From assembly GCA_944372195.1 (NCBI GenBank), contig CALVYK010000001.1, forward strand, positions 47,644-111,643: DNA of 64,000 nt, given 5' to 3'. A program made the translations under genes and the position numbers. A model generated the notes under the pieces. It saw only the letters and a list, made by a program, of their open reading frames with translations. It had not been told where the DNA came from and did no database searches. The number at the start of each line of letters is the position of its first letter. Positions within the stretch are counted from its first letter, which is position 1. Shown piece by piece: positions 41,592-51,661 of the stretch. The stretch is from an uncultured Bacilli bacterium (GTDB taxonomy: Bacteria; Bacillota_I; Bacilli_A; RF39; UBA660).

Positions 41592-42482
41592 ATGATTGAA
41601 AAATTAAAAAAATTAAAAGTTGGTAAAATTATTACTGATCCTAAGATGAGTAATTATACTACTTATAAAGTTGGAGGCAATGCTTTAGCAATTGTTTATC
41701 CAAATCATTTAAATGATTTGATCAAATTATTAGATTTTTTAAAAGAAAATGATATAAAACATAAAATATTAGGAAATGGTTCTAATTTAATTTTCTCTGA
41801 TGAAACTTATGATGGTGTATTAATTAAACTAACTGAATTTAACAACTTAGAAATAGATGATACAGTTATTACAGTAGGAGCCGGTTATAATTTACCTAAA
41901 TTATGTATGAAAGTAGCTAAATTAGGATTAGCTGGTTTAGAATTTGCGGCGGGTATACCTGGCACAATTGGAGGCGCTGTTTTTATGAATGCAGGCGCTT
42001 ATAAGTCTGATATGGGGTACGTTGTAAGTGAAGTTAAAGTAATAGATGAAAATTTAAATGTTAAAACACTTTATAATAAAGATTTAGATTTTCATTATCG
42101 CAGTAGTTATTTGCAAAAGCATAGAGATTTAATTTGTATTGAAGCAAAGATAGTTTTACGAAAAGGTGATGCTAAGGCAATAATGGATGTTATAGCGGAT
42201 AGGAAACAAAGAAGATTACTAACTCAGCCTTTAGAATATCCTTCTGCAGGAAGTGTATTTAGAAATCCTAAAAATGATTATGCCGGAAGATTAATAGAAG
42301 AATTAGGATATAAAGGGAAGAATATTGGTGGAGCATATGTTTCGGAAAAACATGCTAATTTTATTATCAATAAAGGTAATGCGACAGCTAGTGATGTAAG
42401 AAATTTAATTTGTGAAATCAAAGAAAAAGTAAAAGAAAAATATAATATAGATTTAATAGTAGAACAAGAATTTGTAGATTAG
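41592..42482 (+). CDS. murB: UDP-N-acetylenolpyruvoylglucosamine reductase
   Basis: FAD-binding and MurB C-terminal motifs (GNGSNL; SAGSVFRNP). Confidence 0.9.
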   Translation: MIEKLKKLKVGKIITDPKMSNYTTYKVGGNALAIVYPNHLNDLIKLLDFLKENDIKHKILGNGSNLIFSDETYDGVLIKLTEFNNLEIDDTVITVGAGYNLPKLCMKVAKLGLAGLEFAAGIPGTIGGAVFMNAGAYKSDMGYVVSEVKVIDENLNVKTLYNKDLDFHYRSSYLQKHRDLICIEAKIVLRKGDAKAIMDVIADRKQRRLLTQPLEYPSAGSVFRNPKNDYAGRLIEELGYKGKNIGGAYVSEKHANFIINKGNATASDVRNLICEIKEKVKEKYNIDLIVEQEFVD

Positions 42483-42490
42483 AGGTAATT

Positions 42491-43162
42491 ATGAAAAGTA
42501 AAAAGAAAAAAAGAAAAATTAGATATGATCGAATTTTTATATTTTTAGTTATTATAATTTTTATAGTAATTTCTTTTGCTTTTCTTTTTAATTTAAAAAT
42601 ATCAAATATATATATATTAAATAATAGTTTTTTAACTGATCAAGAAATAATTGAAATAGCTGGCATTAGTGATTATCCAGAAACTTTAAAAAATTTAAGT
42701 GTTCAAATTGAAGATAGATTAAAAAACAATATATATATAAAAGATGTAAAAGTTTATAAAAAAGGTTTAACCAAAGTATATATTGATGTTGTTGAAAATA
42801 AACCATTGTTTTATTACGAATCATCTAAAAAAACTATTTTAATGGATGGAAAGGAAACAAATGAAAAATTTGTTGTACCAACAGTTATCAACTATATTAC
42901 AGATAATTATTATGATGCTTTTATAAATGAAATGGCAAATATTGATGAAGATGTTTTGAAAAGAATATCTGAGATTCAATTTTCACCTAATGATGTTGAT
43001 GATAATCGCTTTTTATTAACAATGACAGATGGAAATTATGTTTATGTTAATATCAACACCTTTAATAAATTAAATAAATATATTTCAATTATAGAAGAAT
43101 TACCAAATAAAAATGGTATATTATATTTAGATTATGGTAATAATTTTGAAATTATTGAATAA
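42491..43162 (+). CDS. divIB: cell division protein DivIB/FtsQ
   Basis: Single TM helix plus POTRA-like region; position in the dcw cluster. Confidence 0.7.
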   Translation: MKSKKKKRKIRYDRIFIFLVIIIFIVISFAFLFNLKISNIYILNNSFLTDQEIIEIAGISDYPETLKNLSVQIEDRLKNNIYIKDVKVYKKGLTKVYIDVVENKPLFYYESSKKTILMDGKETNEKFVVPTVINYITDNYYDAFINEMANIDEDVLKRISEIQFSPNDVDDNRFLLTMTDGNYVYVNINTFNKLNKYISIIEELPNKNGILYLDYGNNFEIIE

Positions 43163-43216
43163 TAATCTTTTCTTTTTTTAAAAAATATTGTATAATTAAT
43201 GATAGTAGGTGAGTGC

Positions 43217-44437
43217 ATGCGACATATATATACTTGTATTGATATTGGATCAGATAGTATTAAAATTATAGTATGTGAATTATATCAAAATAGATATAAT
43301 CTTTTAGCGAGTTCTACTATAAAATCAAAAGGAATAAAAAAAGGATTAATCACGGATATAAACGAAGCTAAAAATTGTATAAAAAGTGGTTTTGATGAAT
43401 TAGAGACTATGTTAGGTTTCAAAATAAAAAAAGTAATTGCAATTATTCCAAGCTATTTTTCTGAATTTAATATGATTAAAGGTGAAGTTGTAATTAATGA
43501 TGTAGTTAGAGGAAGCGATATCATAAAAGTACTACAGACTGCTATGAAAGAAAATGATCCTACAAAAGAGATGGTAACAATTATTCCAATCGACTTTACA
43601 ACTGATAATGAAGTAACCAAATTTCCTTTAGGAAAAACATGTTCACTTTTAAAATCTAGGGCAATTATGGTTACAACTCCAAAAAAGAATATTTATTCAG
43701 TTATTAATCTGTTAAATAGCATGGGAATTGAAGTTATTGACATTTCTTTAGGCTGTATTGGTGATATTAATACTTTTATGGATGAAAAAATAGAAAAATG
43801 TATAAGTGCCGTTATAAATATCGGTGCTGAAAAAACAGAAGTTTCGTTATATAATAAAGGTATTATTGTAAAACATGGCATTATAAATATGGGAAGTAAA
43901 AATGTTGATCATGATATCTCGTATATGTATAAAGTTGATTTAGAAACGGCTAAGATGCTAAAAGAAAAATTTTCATCAGCCAGTCGTACTAGTGCATCTT
44001 TAAATGAAACAAAAGAAGTAAAATGTAAGGATGGACAAGTTATAAATATAAATCAGTATGAATTAAGCGAAATTGTAATTTCAAGATTAGATGAAATATT
44101 AACTTTAGCTAATCAAGAAATTAATAAATTAACTTCACACAAACCAGAAATTATATATATTACTGGTGGTATTACTAATATGAATAATTTTCAGCAATTT
44201 AGTAGAGAAAAACTAGGAAAGTGTGTTATAATAGGAAGTGTAAATTTAATTGGTTTAAGAAACAATAAATTTTCATCAGCTATTGGTAATATTATATATT
44301 TTGTAAATAAACTTAAATTAAAAGGAAAAGATTATTCAATGATTACGAATGATGAAATGGAAATTTTATCAACACCTAGAAAGAATACGAACGATTCTAT
44401 GTTAGGGAAGATATTTGGATATTTCTTTGGCGAATAA
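43217..44437 (+). CDS. ftsA: cell division protein FtsA
   Basis: Actin-like fold (IDIGSDSIKI); -10 TGTATAAT at 43187-94 places the transcription start after the ORF-track start. Confidence 0.88.
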   Translation: MRHIYTCIDIGSDSIKIIVCELYQNRYNLLASSTIKSKGIKKGLITDINEAKNCIKSGFDELETMLGFKIKKVIAIIPSYFSEFNMIKGEVVINDVVRGSDIIKVLQTAMKENDPTKEMVTIIPIDFTTDNEVTKFPLGKTCSLLKSRAIMVTTPKKNIYSVINLLNSMGIEVIDISLGCIGDINTFMDEKIEKCISAVINIGAEKTEVSLYNKGIIVKHGIINMGSKNVDHDISYMYKVDLETAKMLKEKFSSASRTSASLNETKEVKCKDGQVININQYELSEIVISRLDEILTLANQEINKLTSHKPEIIYITGGITNMNNFQQFSREKLGKCVIIGSVNLIGLRNNKFSSAIGNIIYFVNKLKLKGKDYSMITNDEMEILSTPRKNTNDSMLGKIFGYFFGE

Positions 44438-44449
44438 GGGAGGATATAC

Positions 44450-45496
44450 ATGTTTGGATTAGAAATGGATCAATTAGCTAATATAAAAGTAATCGGTGTT
44501 GGTGGTGGTGGTAATAACGCTGTAAACCGTATGATAGAATCAGGAGTGCAAGGTGTTGACTTTATAGTTGCTAATACAGACTTACAAGTTTTAAATAAGT
44601 CAAAAGCGCCTGTTAAAATACAAATTGGTACAGATTTAACTAATGGCTTAGGTGCTGGTGCCAATCCGCAAATAGGAAAAGAAGCTGCTTTAGAAAGTAA
44701 AAATGATATCGAAGAAGCTTTAAAAGGTGCTGATATGGTATTTGTTACTTGCGGTATGGGTGGTGGAACAGGTACTGGAGCAGCACCTGTCATTGCCGAT
44801 ATTGCTCAAAGCTTAGGAGCTTTAACAGTAGGTATTGTTACTAAACCATTTAGCTTTGAAGGTAGAAAAAGAATGCAACAAGCTGTTTCAGGTTTAGAAG
44901 AATTAAAGAAACATGTTGATACTTTAATTGTTATACCAAATGATAGATTAAGAGAAATAATCGATAAAACTACACCTTTATTAGATTCATTTAAAGAAGT
45001 TGATAATGTATTAAGAAGAGGTGTTCAATCAATAAGTGACTTAATCGCTGTAGCAGGGTTAATTAACTTGGACTTTGCTGATGTTAAAGCTGTTATGGAA
45101 AAAAGAGGAAATGCTTTAATTGGTATTGGTATGGGTGTTGGTGAAGATAGAGCTAAAGAAGCCGCTTTACAAGCTGTATCTAGTCCATTATTGGAAACAG
45201 GTATAAGTGGAGCAACTGATGCAATTATAAACGTAACAGGTGGCGCCAATTTAACTTTATTTGAAGTAGAAGAAGCTGCTGAAGTTATAAGACAAAATGC
45301 TAATACCGATATTAATACAATATTTGGAGCGGTTATTAATGAGAATTTAAATGATGAATTGATCGTAACTGTTATTGCAACTGGTTTTGAAGAAGAAAAA
45401 CCAGCCCTTCATTCTTATCAAACTACAACTTATAGTACTGATGACGATTCAGATGATGCTGATGTTCCATCATTCTTAAGAAATAGAGGATTTTAA
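44450..45496 (+). CDS. ftsZ: cell division protein FtsZ
   Basis: Tubulin signature GGGTGTG; N-terminus [15 protein letters not shown]. Confidence 0.95.
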
Positions 45497-45681: not shown

Positions 45682-46470
45682 ATGTATGCTGCAGTTAAAA
45701 AACAATTCTTAATAGCTATTTTAGAGCCAATATTAGATAAAAAAATTGAAGATTTAGAACTGTTAAATCCAAATTTAGTTCAAGATTATTTTAGATTAAG
45801 AGGGCAAAGATTAGATTTGTTAGTAAAAACAAAAGATGAGGTAATTAATGTTGAATTGAATACTAATTATAGTGAAGAAATAAAAATAAGAAATTTACAT
45901 TACATTTTTAAGTTAGCAAGCCTTAATACAGAAAGAGGGAATAAATACAAAGTAGGTTATTCGATAATTCAAGTAAATCTAAATTTTTATAATAGTAAAT
46001 ACGAAAAAAGTATCTACACATTATATGATAAAATAAATAAAATAGAATTAACCGATTATATAAAAATATATAATGTAGGTATAGACAAATACATAAAAAA
46101 CTATTATAATAATGATAAGAAGTTTACTAAAGGTGAAGAAGCATTAATCATGCTAGATTTGGGTAAACAAGGTTTAGAAGAATTATCAGAAAAGAGTGAT
46201 ATAGTGAATAATTTTAAAGAAGAAGTAATAAAAGCTAACAATGATGAGTTTATAGTAGATTGGATAAGTCGTGAAGAGGAGCAAAAGCAATATGAAGAAG
46301 TAATGTATGAAAAAGGACTTAATCAAGGATTATCTGAAGGAAAACAAGAAGGAATTGAACAGACTAAAATTGATGTGGCAAAAGAAATGTTAGAATTAAA
46401 TATGGATTTAGAAACAATAAGTAAAGTAACTAAATTAGCTAAAGAACAAATTGAAAGTTTAAAAAATTAA
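45682..46470 (+). CDS. Rpn/YhgA-like PD-(D/E)XK recombination-promoting nuclease / putative transposase family protein
   Basis: RLDLLVK...INVELN core and the charged C-terminal repeat region typical of Rpn-family proteins. Confidence 0.55.
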   Translation: MYAAVKKQFLIAILEPILDKKIEDLELLNPNLVQDYFRLRGQRLDLLVKTKDEVINVELNTNYSEEIKIRNLHYIFKLASLNTERGNKYKVGYSIIQVNLNFYNSKYEKSIYTLYDKINKIELTDYIKIYNVGIDKYIKNYYNNDKKFTKGEEALIMLDLGKQGLEELSEKSDIVNNFKEEVIKANNDEFIVDWISREEEQKQYEEVMYEKGLNQGLSEGKQEGIEQTKIDVAKEMLELNMDLETISKVTKLAKEQIESLKN

Positions 46471-46505
46471 CAAAAAATTAAAAAAACAAAAAAATTTCAT
46501 TTTAT

Positions 46506-46573
46506 TGCAATTTTTTTTATTTTCTTGCAGGAATTCGATATAGCCTTGGCTAATATAACTAGTAGGGAGGTAA
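46506..46573 (+). repeat. 65-bp direct repeat B (native leader of the bacteriocin ABC transporter)
   Basis: TGCAATTTTTTTTattttCTTGCAGGAA...GGGAGGTA immediately before GTG 46578. Confidence 0.6.
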
Positions 46574-46577
46574 AAAA

Positions 46578-48614
46578 GTGTTTAAAAGAATTAAGCAAGA
46601 AGGTTTTAAAGATTGTGGTCCAAGTAGTTTACTTACTATAATTAAACATTACAAAGGTTATATTGACATAAATGATTTAAAAGAAATGTGTAAAACAGAT
46701 AAATCTGGAACAACTGCCTATCATTTAATTGAAGCTAGTAAAAAACTAGGATTTGAAAGTTATGGTATTAGATGTAATTTAAACGATTTAAAAAAAGAAA
46801 ACGTAATACTTCCTTGTATTGCTCATGTAATTATAAATAACTCCTACAATCATTATGTTGTAATTGAAAAAATAGATTTTAAGAAAAAAAAGCTATTAAT
46901 TAACGATCCAATTGGAAAACGTAAATTTTGCTCGTATGAAGAATTTGATAAAATATTTAATAATATTTTGATTTATTTATACCCTATAAAAAAAATAATA
47001 AATATCCCTAATAATTCATATATAAAATTTTTTCAAGAAATAATAAAATCCTCAACAAATCAATTGGTTCAAGTTATTGTTATATCTATTTTTATTACAA
47101 TATTTTCTATTATCTCATCATTTTATATGCAATACATGATCGATAATATTATGTTTTCTAAGCAAAAAATTATACTTATTTTTATAATCTTTTTAATTGT
47201 TTATTTACTTAAAATCATATCAGATTTTTTTAGAAATAAAATTTTGATTATAATTAATCAAAAAGTTGATTTTAATCTTACTTTTAATACTTTTAAACAA
47301 ATTATTAACCTTCCTTATCGTTACTATAAAAATAATACAACTGGTGAAATAATATCAAAAATAAATGATCTAGAAGCTGTAAGAGAAGTGATTTCTAAAG
47401 TAGCTTTGAGTTTATTTATTGATTTGCCTTTAACAATTTTATCTTTAATAATTATGTATATGTTAAGTGATACTTTATTTTTCATAAGTTTAATTATTAT
47501 GCTTTTATATTTATTTATAATTATTATATTTCAAAATAAATTTAATAATTTAATAGATGAAGCAACACTAGATAAAGCATCTGTTACATCATACATGGTT
47601 GAATCTATTAATGGCTATGAAACAATAAAAGGATGTAATATGGAAGGTAAAATTATTCATAATTTTGAAGATAAATATGCTACTTATTCTAATAAAATAA
47701 ATGAATTAGATAGTTGTTACAATTATCAATATTTGCTAAAAGAATTAATAAATAATATAGGTTTTATAATTATTATATTAGTTGGAATATTTTTAGTAAT
47801 GGATAATAAAATAACACTTGGTTCATTATTGTCATTTAATTCTTTACTTATTTATTTTTTAAGTCCTATTAGAAACATTATTGATTTAGATAATAATTTA
47901 AGACAAGCTAAAATATCTATTAAAAAAATATTATATTTATATTATAAAAAAAATAATTTTCAATTTGAACAAGTTATAGGAGATATAGAATTTAAAAATT
48001 TAACTTATAGTTTTGATGACGTAAATAATGTTTTATCTAATATTAATTTAAAAATTAAAAATAAAAGTAAAGTTATGGTATTAGGAAGTAGTGGTAGTGG
48101 GAAAAGTACTTTATTTAAAATTTTAAAACAAAATTATGAAATTAAAAGAGATAAAGTATATATTAATGGTGTTGATATTAACGATTACAAATTAAATAAT
48201 ATTGTTTATGTATCACAAAATGAAATATTATTTTCTGATACAATTGAAAATAATATTGGTAACGATATTTATAAAGTATCTAAAATATGTTTGGTTGATG
48301 AAATAGTAAAAAAAACACAATTGGGTTATAAAACTTTGATTGAAGAAAATGGTTTTAATTTATCGGGTGGTGAGAAACAAAGAATTATTTTAAGTAGGGC
48401 TTTAGCTAATCCTTTTGATATTTTAATAATAGACGAAGGATTAAGTCAGGTTGATACAAATATGGAAAGAGTAATTATAAAAAATATTTTAAAAGAATAT
48501 CAAGATAAAACAATAATTTTTATATCACATAGATTAGATAATATTGATTTATTTAATCAAGTTATAAAAATAGAGAAAGGAAAAATAATTGATGATTTAT
48601 CCAAAAATATATAA
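46578..48614 (+). CDS. peptidase C39 bacteriocin-processing/secretion ABC transporter (GTG start)
   Basis: C39 motif KDCGPSSLLTI; six TM helices; Walker A GSSGSGKST; signature LSGGEKQR. Confidence 0.88.
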   Translation: MFKRIKQEGFKDCGPSSLLTIIKHYKGYIDINDLKEMCKTDKSGTTAYHLIEASKKLGFESYGIRCNLNDLKKENVILPCIAHVIINNSYNHYVVIEKIDFKKKKLLINDPIGKRKFCSYEEFDKIFNNILIYLYPIKKIINIPNNSYIKFFQEIIKSSTNQLVQVIVISIFITIFSIISSFYMQYMIDNIMFSKQKIILIFIIFLIVYLLKIISDFFRNKILIIINQKVDFNLTFNTFKQIINLPYRYYKNNTTGEIISKINDLEAVREVISKVALSLFIDLPLTILSLIIMYMLSDTLFFISLIIMLLYLFIIIIFQNKFNNLIDEATLDKASVTSYMVESINGYETIKGCNMEGKIIHNFEDKYATYSNKINELDSCYNYQYLLKELINNIGFIIIILVGIFLVMDNKITLGSLLSFNSLLIYFLSPIRNIIDLDNNLRQAKISIKKILYLYYKKNNFQFEQVIGDIEFKNLTYSFDDVNNVLSNINLKIKNKSKVMVLGSSGSGKSTLFKILKQNYEIKRDKVYINGVDINDYKLNNIVYVSQNEILFSDTIENNIGNDIYKVSKICLVDEIVKKTQLGYKTLIEENGFNLSGGEKQRIILSRALANPFDILIIDEGLSQVDTNMERVIIKNILKEYQDKTIIFISHRLDNIDLFNQVIKIEKGKIIDDLSKNI

Positions 48615-49047
48615 TAACTTCTCTTATATTTTAAATAAAAAAACATCACTATCAATCTTTTTATGGATAATATTATTAATTATAAGTTTGATTATATTTA
48701 TAATTATCTCTTTAAAATATGAGTATTATTTATATCAATCATATTTTGGATATGTAAAAAAAATAGATGATTCATTTTATACATTTATTTATGTTCCAAA
48801 AGATAAAGTAAATGAATTATCAAGTAGTAATTTATTAGTGGATAATAGTGATTATAGTTTTGAAATTGTTTCAATAAGTGAAGAATATTTTATTATTGAT
48901 AATAAAACTTGTTACCAAGTAATATTAGATTTTGATTTGAAAGATGAATATCAGATTGAAAATAATATTATTGATATCGTTTTAAAAAATAATAGAACAA
49001 CACTTTATCAAGAATTAAAGAAAGGAATAAAGAAATGGAAAAGTTAG
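48589..49047 (+). CDS. short bacteriocin-secretion accessory protein (HlyD/LcnD-like N-terminal part only)
   Basis: Single TM helix then a beta-rich region; 152 aa, against about 450 aa for canonical accessory proteins. Confidence 0.45.
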   Translation: MMIYPKIYNNFSYILNKKTSLSIFLWIILLIISLIIFIIISLKYEYYLYQSYFGYVKKIDDSFYTFIYVPKDKVNELSSSNLLVDNSDYSFEIVSISEEYFIIDNKTCYQVILDFDLKDEYQIENNIIDIVLKNNRTTLYQELKKGIKKWKS

Positions 49048-49169
49048 AAACTAAAGAATTACAAAAAATATCCGGTGGCGGATTAGGTTTAGGTTTATTA
49101 ATAGGAGCTGGTGTTATATTTTTAATCGGTGTTATTGATGGCTATATAAGGCCACTAAAATGTAACTAG
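49035..49169 (+). CDS. double-glycine-leader bacteriocin peptide 1 (MEKLETKELQKISGG | GLGLGLLIGAGVIFLIGVIDGYIRPLKCN)
   Basis: Canonical LxxxELxxIxGG leader; GxxxG-rich hydrophobic core. Confidence 0.8.
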   Translation: MEKLETKELQKISGGGLGLGLLIGAGVIFLIGVIDGYIRPLKCN

Positions 49170-49179
49170 GAGGTGAAAT

Positions 49180-49341
49180 ATGTTAGAAAAAGAAGAATTG
49201 TTACAAATAGTAGGTGGAATTAGTATTACAGGTAGCTTATTAAGTTCAATTTATAAAGGAATTAATTCGATAATGGATGTGGGAAGAAGTTTAGGAAGCG
49301 CAATTAGAAGAGCAATATCAGGTTCAATGTGTCCAGTATAA
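49180..49341 (+). CDS. double-glycine-leader bacteriocin peptide 2 (MLEKEELLQIVGG | ISITGSLLSSIYKGINSIMDVGRSLGSAIRRAISGSMCPV)
   Basis: RBS AGGAGGTGA; GG leader. Confidence 0.8.
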   Translation: MLEKEELLQIVGGISITGSLLSSIYKGINSIMDVGRSLGSAIRRAISGSMCPV

Positions 49342-49484
49342 TAAGAAATCATTATAAACAAATCATATTAACTGTTATAATAATTTGTTTATTGCCTTTA
49401 TTTCCTATATGTGTCGAAATAATATTTAAGTTTGGTAATTTAATAGGTTCTTCTATTAGATGTTTAACTTCTTGTCCAGTATAA
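49329..49484 (+). pseudogene. degenerate third bacteriocin-like ORF or small hydrophobic immunity-like peptide (possible GTG start)
   Basis: C-terminus ...FKFGNLIGSSIRCLTSCPV is homologous to the peptide 2 C-terminus GRSLGSAIRRAISGSMCPV; no GG leader, no RBS. Confidence 0.3.
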
Positions 49485-49590
49485 AAGAATGACAAAAATC
49501 ATTCTTTTTCTTTATTTTTAATAAAAAACTATTGTAAAATAAAGAAAAAGGTGATATAATCTCAAGTAGTTGTGTGGAAGGAGGGATCAT

Positions 49591-50263: not shown

Positions 50264-50332
50264 AATTGTATGAAATATTACAATTTTTTTATTTTTTATT
50301 TAAAAAATGATATAATGTAATAGGTGATAAAA

Positions 50333-51657
50333 ATGTATGATAATAAAAAAATGTTTATTTTAGGTATGGCAAGATCTGGTTATGAAGTAGCTAAAGTACT
50401 AGCTAAACATAATTGTGATATTGTTATTACCGATATGAAAGAACAAGATGAAGAAAAAGTAAAAGAATTAAAAGAGTTGGGAGTTAATTTAATAATAACT
50501 GATAAACCAGCAGATTTATTAGATGATAGTTTTAGTTATGTTGTTAAAAATCCTGGAATTAAATTAGATCATCCTGTTTGTTTGAAAGCTAATGATTTAA
50601 ATATTCCAATTATTAATGAATTAGAAGTAGCTTATCATTATTTACCTAAAAATGTAAAAATAGTAGGTATTACAGGAAGTAATGGTAAAACAACAACAAC
50701 AACATTAACTTATAACATATTAAAAGAAGCAGGATTACCTGTTCATTTAGGTGGCAATATTGGTTATCCTATGTGTTCATTATTAGATAGTGTTAAAGAA
50801 AACGATATTTTAGTTTTAGAAGTTTCAGGTCATCAAATGCATGATTTTAAAGATTTTAAAATTGATATTGGTGTCTTAACTAATTTAACTCAGGTTCATT
50901 TAGACCATTTTGGAACTTATGAAAATTATATTAAAAATAAAGTAAAAATATTTAATCATCATACTAGTAATGATATTGCCATATTAAATGGTAATAACAT
51001 AGATGTATTAAATAATACAAAAGATATAAAATCTAAAAAAATATATTTTTCAGCTTCTAAAGAATGTGATGCTTGTATCAAAAATGATGCTATTTACTAT
51101 AAAGAAGAAATTATAAAACTAAATGAAATAAAATTAAAAGGTAATCATAACTATGAAAATATTATGTGTGCGGTTATTGTAGCTAAACAATTTAATGTTT
51201 CAAATGAAATAATTAAAAAAGTATTAAGTAGTTTTGGTGGAGTAGAACATAGATTGGAATATGTAAGAACATTAAATACAAGAGAATTTTATAATGATTC
51301 AAAAGCAACTAATGTTGTTTCAACTATTATTGCCTTAGATTCATTTAACAAACCAACTTATTTATTATTAGGTGGGTTAGATAGAGGACATTCTTTTGAT
51401 GATTTATTACCACATATGAAAAATGTAAAAGCTGTTGTTTGTTATGGACAAACTAAAGATAGAATATTAGATTTCTGTAATAAAAATAATATTACTTGTT
51501 ATAAAAAAGACAACTTAGAAGAATCAATAAAAAAAGCTTACGAATTATCAGTTGATAACAGTGTTATCTTGTTAAGTCCAGCCTGTGCCTCTTGGGATCA
51601 ATACGCTAAATTTGAAGATAGAGGAGATGAGTTTAAGAAAGTAGTGAATAGTTTAAA

Positions 51658-51661
<4 letters not shown>
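50333..51661 (+). CDS. murD: UDP-N-acetylmuramoylalanine--D-glutamate ligase
   Basis: GITGSNGKTTTTTL; start set after -10 GATATAAT (50309-16) and RBS TAGGTGA. Confidence 0.88.

What the first reader, a model, noticed from the sequence alone, without database searches (positions are those of the whole stretch)
46578..49484. Two-peptide double-glycine bacteriocin locus with a degenerate third copy and truncated accessory protein, wedged between ftsZ and rpsU
A C39-peptidase ABC exporter is followed by a 152-aa remnant of an HlyD-like accessory protein. Two unannotated peptides then carry textbook GG leaders: MEKLETKELQKISGG (49035-49169) and MLEKEELLQIVGG (49180-49341). Their cores are GxxxG-rich, as in class IIb two-peptide bacteriocins.

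A third frame (49329-49484) ends ...IGSSIRCLTSCPV. This is clearly homologous to the peptide 2 tail ...LGSAIRRAISGSMCPV, but it lacks a leader and an RBS. It is either a decaying duplicate or a co-opted immunity-like hydrophobic peptide. No obvious immunity gene (CAAX or 4-TM) follows.
Basis: partly seen in the sequence, partly recalled or inferred. Interest (0 to 1): 0.65.

Follow-up and report, generated by a model that had tools for sequence, protein, structure and literature searches.

The report
Conserved two-peptide bacteriocin-like operon, five genes
This is an intact five-gene operon that cleaves and exports two small peptides and also encodes a conserved third membrane peptide, probably for self-protection, and it sits in the same chromosomal place across many uncultured gut bacteria, so it is a stable system and not a decaying remnant.

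Summary
Window 46578-49484 holds a C39-peptidase ABC exporter, a 151-aa protein, two double-glycine (GG) prepeptides and a third small ORF.

Two interpretations fail:
- **The third ORF is not decaying.** It is intact in 12 of 12 related genomes. Its dN/dS is 0.10-0.32. Its GTG/ATG start overlaps peptide 2 in every lineage, and a hairpin terminator follows it. Its C-terminal tail is homologous to the peptide 2 tail (hhalign E=1.5e-5). It is a 51-aa single-pass membrane peptide, placed and sized like the short immunity proteins CbnZ, BrcI and AbpIM.
- **The 151-aa protein is not a truncated remnant.** It belongs to a family of 268 clusters; nearly all of the 150 best-scoring representatives listed are about 130-163 aa, apart from some shorter fragments. 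A pLDDT 93.5 model shows one transmembrane helix plus a beta-barrel that resembles the barrel domain of membrane-fusion (HlyD-type) proteins.

The cassette lies directly upstream of rpsU-yqeY in 34 of 47 informative loci, down to 56% YqeY identity. The closest named relative belongs to order RF39. rsmD-cassette-rpsU is the commonest flank. The ftsZ side of the window is a derived junction that carries an Rpn nuclease gene.

Function is inferred: a class IIb-like two-peptide system. A non-antagonistic role is not excluded.

The parts
46490..46577 (+). Conserved 5' region of the cassette. It holds a hairpin-plus-T-run block (AAAATTGCA..TGCAATTTTTTTT in relatives, one mismatch in the window), then a nearly invariant block ..AGGA..CTAATATAACTAGTAGGGAGGT that ends in the exporter's Shine-Dalgarno sequence.
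   Evidence: Alignment of 12 loci with three different upstream genes. The block travels with the cassette, not with the neighbouring gene. No promoter was assigned with confidence.
46578..48614 (+). Peptidase-containing ABC transporter (PCAT), 678 aa: C39 cysteine peptidase, six-helix membrane domain and nucleotide-binding domain.
   Evidence: Pfam C39, ABC_membrane and ABC_tran all pass their cut-offs. TIGR01193 scores 415 bits, below its 523.85 cut-off. Full-length match to PCAT1 (4ry2) and ComA (8hf4), E about 1e-97. 69-93% identical in 12 related genomes.
48592..49047 (+). 151-aa accessory protein: short N-terminal segment, one transmembrane helix, then a six-stranded beta-barrel with a capping helix ('mini-MFP'). 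It overlaps the exporter's 3' end by 23 nt.
   Evidence: 151 aa in relatives down to 56% identity. 268 cluster representatives; nearly all full-length ones among the 150 listed are about 130-163 aa. No Pfam or NCBIfam family. AF2 pLDDT 93.5. Foldseek top hits are BesA, EmrA, Spr0693, MacA, MexA, AcrA and CusB, with prob 0.96-1.0 and E 0.03-0.15. dN/dS 0.15-0.56.
49035..49169 (+). Prepeptide 1 (44 aa): a 15-aa GG leader plus a 29-aa hydrophobic glycine-zipper core, GLGLGLLIGAGVIFLIGVIDGYIRPLKCN. Its start overlaps the accessory gene by 13 nt.
   Evidence: TIGR01847 leader 17.7 bits, above the 15.7 cut-off. TIGR03949 15.7 bits, below the 21.5 cut-off. 940 related clusters, some named 'class IIb bacteriocin, lactobin A/cerein 7B family'. 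dN/dS 0-0.19. The ..DG[YF]xRPLxC[NRK] end is conserved in most of the diverse loci examined.
49180..49341 (+). Prepeptide 2 (53 aa): a 13-aa GG leader plus a 40-aa cationic (+3) amphipathic core with an invariant GRSLGSAIRR motif and a Cys near the C-terminus. A strong SD (AGGAGGTG) lies upstream.
   Evidence: dN/dS 0.02-0.20. The motif G-x3-G[ST]-x2-R is present in 24 of 26 lineages, and a Cys lies in the last 8 residues in 26 of 26.
49329..49484 (+). Third peptide (51 aa). GTG start, 13-nt overlap with peptide 2, no GG leader. It has a basic N-terminus, one transmembrane segment (residues about 12-33) and a C-terminal tail, KFGNLIGSSIRCLTSCPV, that is paralogous to the peptide 2 tail. Probable immunity or partner peptide.
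   Evidence: Intact in 12 of 12 genome loci. dN/dS 0.10-0.32. ATG at the same position in L005, L021, L022, L026, L027 and L028. hhalign against peptide 2 gives E=1.5e-5; shuffle tests. 19-residue hydropathy 2.68. Motif G-x3-G-x3-R in 26 of 26 lineages. Rarely called as a gene: only 3 database clusters.
49483..49519 (+). Intrinsic-terminator-like hairpin (10-bp A/U-rich stem, 49483-49508) followed by a U-rich tract. It marks the end of the operon.
   Evidence: Fold energy -8.4 kcal/mol, z=-2.27. A hairpin plus U-run follows the stop codon of the third ORF in most of the 16 loci folded, with different stem sequences. The consensus scan missed it because it requires at least 3 G-C pairs.

Best explanation
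This is a complete, vertically conserved operon for a class IIb-like two-peptide system in an uncultured, low-GC gut Bacilli lineage. The closest named relative, Ca. Faecisoma, belongs to order RF39.

**Proposed mechanism.**
1. The PCAT recognises the GG leaders of prepeptides 1 and 2, cuts after GG with its C39 domain, and exports a 29-aa hydrophobic glycine-zipper peptide and a 40-aa cationic amphipathic peptide.
2. The 151-aa single-pass protein with an MFP-type beta-barrel assists the exporter on the outer face of the membrane. It is a minimal analogue of the LcnD/ComB/HlyD accessories.
3. The two mature peptides pair through their GxxxG motifs and act on membranes of competing bacteria.
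4. The third gene encodes a leaderless 51-aa single-pass membrane peptide whose exposed tail is an ancient paralogue of the C-terminal half of peptide 2. It stays in the producer's membrane and most likely gives immunity, plausibly by occupying the site that peptide 2 would bind on peptide 1 or on the receptor.

**Shown:** gene content, leaders, domain integrity, conservation, purifying selection, paralogy, fold of the accessory protein, operon boundaries.

**Inferred:** export, cleavage, antimicrobial activity, immunity and the decoy mechanism.
For: - **Exporter.** Intact C39, membrane and NBD domains, and a full-length PCAT1/ComA match.
- **Leaders.** Both have the L-12/E-8/L-7/I-4/GG consensus, and TIGR01847 passes for peptide 1.
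- **Family link.** Peptide 1 relatives pass TIGR03949 (21.6-26.6 bits against 21.5) and are named class IIb bacteriocins by sources.
- **Operon structure.** Overlapping or tightly spaced genes and a terminator after the third ORF that is conserved by structure but not by sequence.
- **Selection.** All four small genes are under purifying selection.
- **Third ORF.** Conserved from 96% down to about 24% identity, with its start always overlapping the end of peptide 2.
- **Tail homology.**
- **Precedent.** Short single-TM immunity proteins encoded directly after two-peptide genes: CbnZ 42 aa (N-in, C-out), BrcI 53, EnkIaz 52, AbpIM 55 (PMC6957408).
- **Accessory protein.** A large family whose members are mostly 130-163 aa, with an MFP-barrel fold.
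Against: - There is no functional data of any kind.
- The cassette is syntenic next to rpsU across deep divergence (34 of 47 informative loci, YqeY down to 56% identity). The mature peptides are among its most conserved products. That pattern is unusual for antagonistic bacteriocins.
- At least 11 cassette-bearing lineages show no third ORF, and the gap from peptide 2 to rpsU there is only 80-190 nt or absent. Several lineages also lack a detectable accessory gene. So neither component is universally required.
- No regulator (histidine kinase, response regulator or inducer peptide) is nearby.
- Window peptide 1 is below the TIGR03949 cut-off and peptide 2 matches no family.
- Foldseek E-values for the accessory protein are weak (0.03-0.15).
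- Cognate tails of peptide 2 and the third peptide are no more alike than non-cognate ones, so there is no co-evolution signal for a direct interaction.
Confidence: 0.58

Rival explanations
1. Same machinery, different purpose. The cassette is a domesticated, lineage-core secretion system whose two peptides, with the anchored third one, serve the producer itself. They might form a membrane or surface complex, or act as a signal, rather than kill competitors.
For: - The cassette is in a fixed position upstream of rpsU-yqeY in 34 of 47 informative metagenomic loci and in most of the genome loci examined, spanning YqeY 56-96% identity.
- Purifying selection on the mature peptides is very strong (dN/dS 0.02-0.2), with invariant motifs across the clade.
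- Many lineages have no immunity candidate.
- There are no mobile-element hallmarks except the Rpn gene in the window's own sub-lineage.
Against: - No receptor or two-component system lies nearby for a signalling role.
- Peptide features (GG leaders, GxxxG, cationic amphipathic beta peptide, paired genes) are those of class IIb bacteriocins.
- 13 of 47 loci lack the cassette, and the ABC gene is split or shortened in some lineages (L024, L028). It is therefore dispensable.
Confidence: 0.27
2. The third ORF is a third active or secreted component. Its N-terminal hydrophobic segment would act as a Sec signal or anchor that releases a peptide-2-like tail of about 18-23 aa, making a three-component system rather than an immunity function.
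For: - It has a basic N-terminus followed by a hydrophobic stretch.
- Its tail carries the same G-x3-G[ST]-x2-R...Cys signature as peptide 2.
- It is co-transcribed and translationally coupled with peptide 2.
Against: - No signal-peptidase (AxA) or lipobox site is conserved in the alignment.
- The hydrophobic stretch of about 22 residues, with conserved prolines, is of transmembrane length.
- It is absent from many lineages that keep peptides 1 and 2.
Confidence: 0.1
3. One reading: the third ORF is a decaying duplicate of peptide 2, and the 152-aa ORF is a truncated remnant of a long HlyD-like accessory gene.
For: - The tail resembles peptide 2.
- The third ORF has no GG leader.
- The accessory protein has no Pfam hit.
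- A truncated third ORF does occur in one distant lineage (L024, a 31-aa relic).
Against: - The ORF is intact with conserved length in 12 of 12 relatives, and dN/dS is 0.10-0.32.
- The start codon and terminator placement are conserved.
- The accessory protein is 151 aa in relatives from 93% down to 56% identity. It matches 268 clusters, and none of the 150 listed is longer than 163 aa.
- A confident, compact fold is predicted.
Confidence: 0.03

Closest known systems
Class IIb two-peptide bacteriocin operons with short single-TM immunity proteins (carnobacteriocin XY/CbnZ, brochocin-C/BrcI, ABP-118/AbpIM, enterocin NKR-5-3AZ/EnkIaz)
   Same: - Two adjacent GG-leader prepeptide genes.
- GxxxG-rich cores of 29 and 40 residues.
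- A 42-55 aa hydrophobic single-TM gene immediately downstream (PMC6957408).
- A dedicated C39-ABC exporter.
   Different: - The gene order here is exporter, accessory, peptides, and all are in one operon.
- No inducer or two-component regulator is present.
- The third peptide is a paralogue of the beta peptide. I found no report of this for the known immunity proteins, and the rest rests on my own knowledge.
- The locus is chromosomal and syntenic, and is conserved across many divergent lineages.
- No activity has been shown.
Lactobin A/cerein 7B family class IIb bacteriocins (NCBIfam TIGR03949)
   Same: GG leader plus a glycine-rich hydrophobic core. Orthologues of peptide 1 from related lineages pass the curated cut-off, and PGAP and JGI name them so.
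   Different: - The window's own peptide 1 scores 15.7 bits against a cut-off of 21.5.
- The conserved C-terminal ..IDG[YF]xRPLKCN signature lies mostly outside the stretch matched by the model.
- Peptide 2 matches no family.
PCAT1 (C. thermocellum) and ComA (S. pneumoniae) peptidase-containing ABC transporters
   Same: Full-length alignment, with the catalytic Cys/His region and the Walker A, signature and Walker B motifs present.
   Different: It is below the curated cut-off of TIGR01193 (415 against 523.85). It is about 40-50 residues shorter than PCAT1 and ComA. It is paired with a mini accessory protein rather than none (PCAT1) or ComB.
HlyD/MFP-type accessory proteins of Gram-positive bacteriocin exporters (LcnD, ComB, PlnH) and periplasmic adaptor proteins (AcrA, MacA, EmrA, BesA, Spr0693)
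   Same: An N-terminal membrane anchor and a six-stranded beta-barrel with a capping helix. Adaptor proteins dominate the Foldseek hits. The gene sits directly after the ABC gene.
   Different: - It is only about 150 aa.
- It has no alpha-hairpin, lipoyl or membrane-proximal domain.
- No sequence-level similarity is detectable.
- It is a separate family with no long members among the 150 listed.

Membership tests
Class IIb (two-peptide) bacteriocin system | Two different prepeptide genes adjacent in one operon, each with a double-glycine leader. | tested here: met
   Leader consensus positions are present in both. TIGR01847 passes for peptide 1 and for a peptide 2 orthologue, but the window's peptide 2 gives no HMM hit.
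Class IIb (two-peptide) bacteriocin system | GxxxG-type helix-helix motifs in both mature peptides; small cationic or hydrophobic cores. | tested here: met
   Peptide 1 has G1-x3-G5, G5-x3-G9 and G17-x3-G21. Peptide 2 has G22-x3-G26 (GRSLG). Net charges are +1 and +3.
Class IIb (two-peptide) bacteriocin system | Dedicated immunity gene in the same operon. | tested here: inconclusive
   The third ORF has the position, size and single TM segment of CbnZ, BrcI and AbpIM. However, it is missing in at least 11 cassette-bearing lineages, and its function is untested.
Class IIb (two-peptide) bacteriocin system | [quoted passage not shown] | not testable with these tools
   This needs synthetic or purified peptides.
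NCBIfam TIGR03949 (lactobin A/cerein 7B class IIb bacteriocins) | Score at or above the curated cut-off of 21.5 bits. | tested here: not met
   Window peptide 1 scores 15.7 bits. Orthologues in L021, L022 and L024 score 26.6, 22.7 and 21.6 bits and pass.
Peptidase-containing ABC transporter (PCAT/AMS; TIGR01193) | N-terminal C39 peptidase with catalytic Cys, plus ABC membrane domain and NBD in one chain. | tested here: met
   All three Pfam domains are above their cut-offs. The DCG cysteine and the HYVV histidine region align to PCAT1. The TIGR01193 whole-protein score of 415 is below its 523.85 cut-off, so this is a divergent member.
HlyD/membrane-fusion-protein accessory (LcnD/ComB type) | Sequence membership in the HlyD-family Pfam or NCBIfam models. 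| tested here: not met
   No family hit for the window protein or for 10 diverse relatives. There are no PDB sequence hits.
HlyD/membrane-fusion-protein accessory (LcnD/ComB type) | Multi-domain architecture: alpha-hairpin plus lipoyl plus beta-barrel. | tested here: not met
   The model has one TM helix plus one beta-barrel only. The representatives listed are at most 163 aa.
HlyD/membrane-fusion-protein accessory (LcnD/ComB type) | MFP beta-barrel fold. | tested here: inconclusive
Short single-TM two-peptide-bacteriocin immunity proteins (CbnZ/BrcI/AbpIM/EnkIaz) | 42-55 aa, one TM domain, encoded immediately downstream of the peptide pair. | tested here: met
   51 aa, hydropathy peak 2.68 over residues 14-32, overlapping the stop of peptide 2, and the last gene before the terminator.
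Short single-TM two-peptide-bacteriocin immunity proteins (CbnZ/BrcI/AbpIM/EnkIaz) | Confers protection on a sensitive strain; sequence relatedness to a known member. | not tested

The most novel reading that the evidence does not exclude
The third peptide is a membrane-anchored decoy that evolved from the toxin's own beta peptide. Its GG leader was replaced by a transmembrane anchor. Its tail, with the same G-x3-G[ST]-x2-R...Cys signature, captures peptide 1 or the receptor at the producer's surface. This would be immunity by molecular mimicry of the toxin.

Together with a minimal one-domain MFP accessory protein, this would be a streamlined bacteriocin module inherited vertically beside rpsU across much of a reduced-genome gut clade related to RF39. 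It may have been co-opted for a core function.
Probability: 0.22. Interest if true: 0.75.

Novelty: new variant of a known kind. Interest (0 to 1): 0.52.

Why it matters
RF39-type Bacilli are abundant, uncultured gut bacteria with reduced genomes, and almost nothing is known of how they interact with neighbours. This clade-wide, syntenic two-peptide export operon is a concrete, synthesisable handle on that question: peptides of 29 and 40 residues.

Three points would interest bacteriocin and ABC-exporter specialists:
- A putative immunity peptide that is a paralogue of the toxin's beta peptide.
- A family of accessory proteins of about 150 aa, with no Pfam or NCBIfam match, that keeps only the barrel of a membrane-fusion protein.
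- Unusually strong conservation and fixed genomic position for a supposed weapon.

There is also a practical lesson. The third gene is missed by gene callers (3 database clusters against 940 for peptide 1), so short immunity genes may be under-annotated.

Tried and rejected
1. **Decay of the third ORF.** Rejected by ORF integrity and dN/dS.
2. **Truncation of the accessory gene.** Rejected by the family length distribution.
3. **Lineage-specific co-variation or gene conversion between the tails of peptide 2 and the third peptide.** I suspected this from L021 and L022. A permutation test over 26 lineages does not support it: 3164 of 20000 permutations reached the cognate score for the last 10 aa, and 8620 of 20000 for the last 26 aa. 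The similarity is a family-level shared motif.
4. **Pairwise BLASTP of peptide 2 against the third peptide.** It finds nothing; only profiles and shuffle tests show the relation.
5. **Sequence searches of the accessory protein against Pfam, NCBIfam and PDB.** Nothing meaningful.
6. **Exact look-up of the window's 152-aa ORF.** Not on record.
8. **Promoter assignment.** The sigma-70 scan is no better than shuffles (46 found against 42.3 expected), and I could not fit a canonical -35/-10 to the conserved upstream block.
9. **Other GG-leader peptides in the window.** A strict regular-expression scan found none besides peptide 1; it also missed peptide 2's shorter leader, so it is not exhaustive.
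10. **Literature searches** for this cassette in RF39/RFN20, or for toxin-derived immunity peptides, found nothing specific.
11. **Horizontal acquisition inferred from low GC** (18% in the ABC gene against about 25% in its flanks). Not pursued, because the cassette has the same position in distant relatives.


Full report
**1. The observation**

Window 46578-49484 contains, on the + strand, the following genes:
- a 678-aa ORF (46578-48614);
- a 151/152-aa ORF (TTG 48589 or ATG 48592, to 49047);
- a 44-aa ORF (49035-49169);
- a 53-aa ORF (49180-49341);
- a 51-aa ORF (GTG 49329-49484).

The large protein has Peptidase_C39, ABC_membrane and ABC_tran domains, all above their Pfam cut-offs. It aligns end to end with the solved PCAT1 and ComA transporters (E about 1e-97). 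The DCG catalytic cysteine, the H-Y/F-V-V histidine region, Walker A, the LSGG signature and Walker B are all present.

Both small peptides have the canonical double-glycine leader positions (L-12, E-8, L-7, I-4, G-2, G-1). Peptide 1 passes the TIGR01847 leader model.

One omission: between ftsZ (44450-45496) and the exporter lies an Rpn-family PD-(D/E)XK nuclease or putative transposase gene (45682-46470).

**2. The cassette is a conserved unit**

A scan of one genome per species found 12 full loci with the same five genes in the same order, at 69-93% ABC identity. All come from uncultured gut 'Bacilli' or 'Tenericutes' MAGs. One is Candidatus Faecisoma merdavium, which is GTDB genus CAG-878, family CAG-822, order RF39 (PMC8035907).

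The genes are tightly packed:
- the accessory gene overlaps the ABC gene by 23 nt;
- peptide 1 overlaps the accessory gene by 13 nt;
- peptide 2 follows peptide 1 after 10 nt, behind AGGAGGTG;
- the third ORF overlaps peptide 2 by 13 nt.

A 10-bp hairpin plus U-tract starts within the stop codon of the third ORF. An equivalent hairpin with different stem sequences follows that ORF in most of the 16 loci folded. The third ORF is thus the last gene of the operon.

**3. The third ORF is a real gene**

- It is open, with the same length (51 aa; 48 aa in L010), in all 12 loci.
- Its start is GTG in 11 of those loci and ATG in L005. More distant lineages (L021, L022, L026, L027, L028) have ATG at the same overlapping position.
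- An SD-like AGGT lies 5 nt upstream; it is GGAGGT in L007 and L009.
- Outside the overlap, dN/dS against the window copy is 0.10-0.32. That is similar to or lower than the accessory gene's 0.15-0.56.

The peptide has a basic N-terminus, a 22-residue hydrophobic stretch (peak hydropathy 2.68) and an 18-residue tail.

Gene callers almost never predict it. There are only 3 clusters in a 5.8-billion-protein collection, against 940 for peptide 1.

**4. Its tail is homologous to the peptide 2 tail**

- BLASTP sees nothing.
- Profile-profile comparison gives E=5.8e-4 with close relatives and E=1.5e-5 (probability 79%) with diverse ones. It always aligns the C-terminal 25-28 residues of both.
- Within-genome shuffle tests reached the observed score in 7/5000 (window), 0/5000 (L007), 2/5000 (L021), 0/5000 (L022), 54/5000 (L026), 46/5000 (L027) and 475/5000 (L028) shuffles.
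- Across 26 lineages, the motif G-x3-G[ST]-x2-R occurs in 24 peptide 2 sequences and in all 26 third peptides (there as G-x3-G-x3-R). A Cys lies within the last 8 residues in 26 and 23 of them respectively.

I suspected lineage-specific co-variation of the two tails, but a permutation test does not support it. The 'decaying duplicate' reading does not.

**5. The 151-aa protein is not a remnant**

- Relatives from 93% down to 56% identity are all 149-151 aa, apart from two fragments of 94 and 120 aa.
- A profile search of 1.84 billion representatives finds 268 clusters. Of the 150 best listed, nearly all are about 130-163 aa, some are shorter fragments, and none is a long HlyD-like protein.
- Neither it nor ten diverse relatives match any Pfam or NCBIfam model or any PDB sequence.

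With a 127-sequence alignment, AlphaFold2 gives pLDDT 93.5 and pTM 0.75. The model has a short N-terminal helix, a transmembrane helix (about residues 20-42), a six-stranded beta-barrel with a capping helix, and a C-terminal helix.

Periplasmic adaptor or membrane-fusion proteins dominate the Foldseek hits against the PDB: BesA, EmrA, Spr0693, MacA, MexA, AcrA, CusB and ZneB. Probabilities are 0.96-1.0 over 80-100 aligned columns, but E-values are only 0.03-0.15. The first, poorer model gave the same families.

I read it as a minimal, single-domain analogue of the HlyD/LcnD-type accessory. 'Remnant' does not hold.

**6. Breadth and position**

Distant members of the accessory family (profile E about 1e-13 to 1e-15) sit in the same arrangement: C39-ABC, accessory, a 47-aa GG peptide and a 55-56-aa GG peptide, then rpsU-yqeY. 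In L022 rsmD precedes the ABC gene, and a third ORF follows peptide 2. Three peptide-1 homologues from long contigs show the same core cassette, two of them next to rpsU.

I then fetched 80 metagenomic loci by YqeY similarity (55-96%) and scanned them with HMMs of the four small proteins:
- Of 47 loci with at least 1 kb upstream of rpsU, 34 carry the cassette directly upstream of rpsU and 13 do not.
- rsmD is the upstream neighbour in 12 of these and in L005, L007, L010, L013, L022 and L027. It is the commonest flank and probably the ancestral one.
- yebC flanks the cassette in L003, L004 and L008.
- ftsZ plus Rpn flanks it only in the window, L001, L002 and L029.

So the cassette is old and mostly vertically kept, and 'wedged between ftsZ and rpsU' describes a recent rearrangement on one side.

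Components vary among lineages:
- The third ORF is detected in about 20 lineages. It is absent in at least 11, where the gap from peptide 2 to rpsU is only 80-190 nt or absent.
- The accessory gene is undetected, with no room for it, in several lineages such as L055.
- The ABC gene is split in L024 and shortened in L028.

**7. What it most likely does**

The anatomy is that of a class IIb two-peptide bacteriocin operon: a PCAT, an accessory protein, alpha and beta prepeptides with GxxxG motifs, and a small membrane protein last.

- Orthologues of peptide 1 pass NCBIfam TIGR03949 (lactobin A/cerein 7B class IIb bacteriocins), and PGAP and JGI name them so. The window's own copy is below the cut-off (15.7 against 21.5 bits).
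- Short single-TM immunity proteins encoded right after the two peptide genes are documented: CbnZ (42 aa; N-in, C-out by pho-lac), BrcI (53), EnkIaz (52) and AbpIM (55) (PMC6957408). The third ORF fits them in size, position and predicted topology.

I therefore propose immunity as its most likely role. Mimicry of the beta peptide is a possible mechanism; this is inference only. All three peptides carry a Cys close to the C-terminus. That would allow disulfide-linked pairs, but this is speculation.

**8. The main rival**

The deep synteny and very low dN/dS of the mature peptides are atypical of antagonistic bacteriocins. So are the absence of any regulator and the many lineages without an immunity candidate. 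These features leave room for a producer-directed role, such as a membrane complex or a signal. I give this about 0.27. A three-component reading, with the third peptide processed and released, gets about 0.1, because no cleavage site is conserved.

**9. Novelty**

The kind of system (GG-peptide export, class IIb-like) is known, and peptide-1 homologues are already auto-annotated. Three things appear to be undescribed in the literature I could search:
- the toxin-paralogous anchored third peptide;
- the accessory family of about 150 aa with an MFP-type barrel;
- the clade-wide conservation beside rpsU in RF39-type gut Bacilli.

I rate it a new variant of a known kind. Interest is moderate, and all functional claims remain to be tested.

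Noticed in passing
window 45682-46470 (+): An Rpn-family PD-(D/E)XK nuclease or putative transposase gene (TIGR01784 65.3 bits, PF12784) sits exactly at the junction between ftsZ and the cassette. It is present only in the window's closest relatives (L001, L002, L029) and appears as two tblastn pieces in L029. A distant Rpn-like gene (30% identity) also lies between rsmD and the ABC gene in L095. It may mark the rearrangement breakpoint.
   Followed up: partly
window 46490-46577; alignment A8: A hairpin plus T-run and a nearly invariant block (..AGGA..CTAATATAACTAGTAGGGAGGT) precede the ABC gene regardless of which gene lies upstream (Rpn, yebC or rsmD). I could not fit a standard -35/-10 promoter, so this may be an unusual promoter or an operator.
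   Followed up: partly
L008 10910-12725; L013 10919-12093; L010 10918-11521; L096 and L108 between peptide 2 and rpsU: Lineage-specific insertions lie between the cassette and rpsU. L008 has three ORFs (109, 202 and 192 aa), L013 a 296-aa ORF and L010 a 150-aa ORF. L096 and L108 have an ORF of about 180 aa that looks like a rubrerythrin to me (not checked against any library). The spot tolerates insertions.
   Followed up: no
L024 3018-5017 versus L025 3017-5017; L028 2262-4572: The PCAT gene is split into a 163-aa C39 piece and a 474-aa piece in L024, but is intact (666 aa) in the near-identical L025. In L028 only a 348-aa C-terminal part is called. This suggests decay or assembly errors in some lineages. 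L024 and L025 also lack an intact third ORF; L024 has a 31-aa relic.
   Followed up: partly
window 41592-45496 and 50324-51661: murB, a divIB-like gene, ftsA and ftsZ form a division cluster upstream. A murD-like gene lies separately, downstream of rpsU-yqeY. These names rest on my reading of the translations and were not checked against family libraries. Cell-wall synthesis genes appear to be present, and the dcw cluster is fragmented in this reduced-genome lineage.
   Followed up: no
window 46600-48700: GC content falls to 17.5-19% across the ABC and accessory genes, against about 23-30% in the flanks. This may simply reflect the composition of membrane-protein genes, but it was not tested further.
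   Followed up: no
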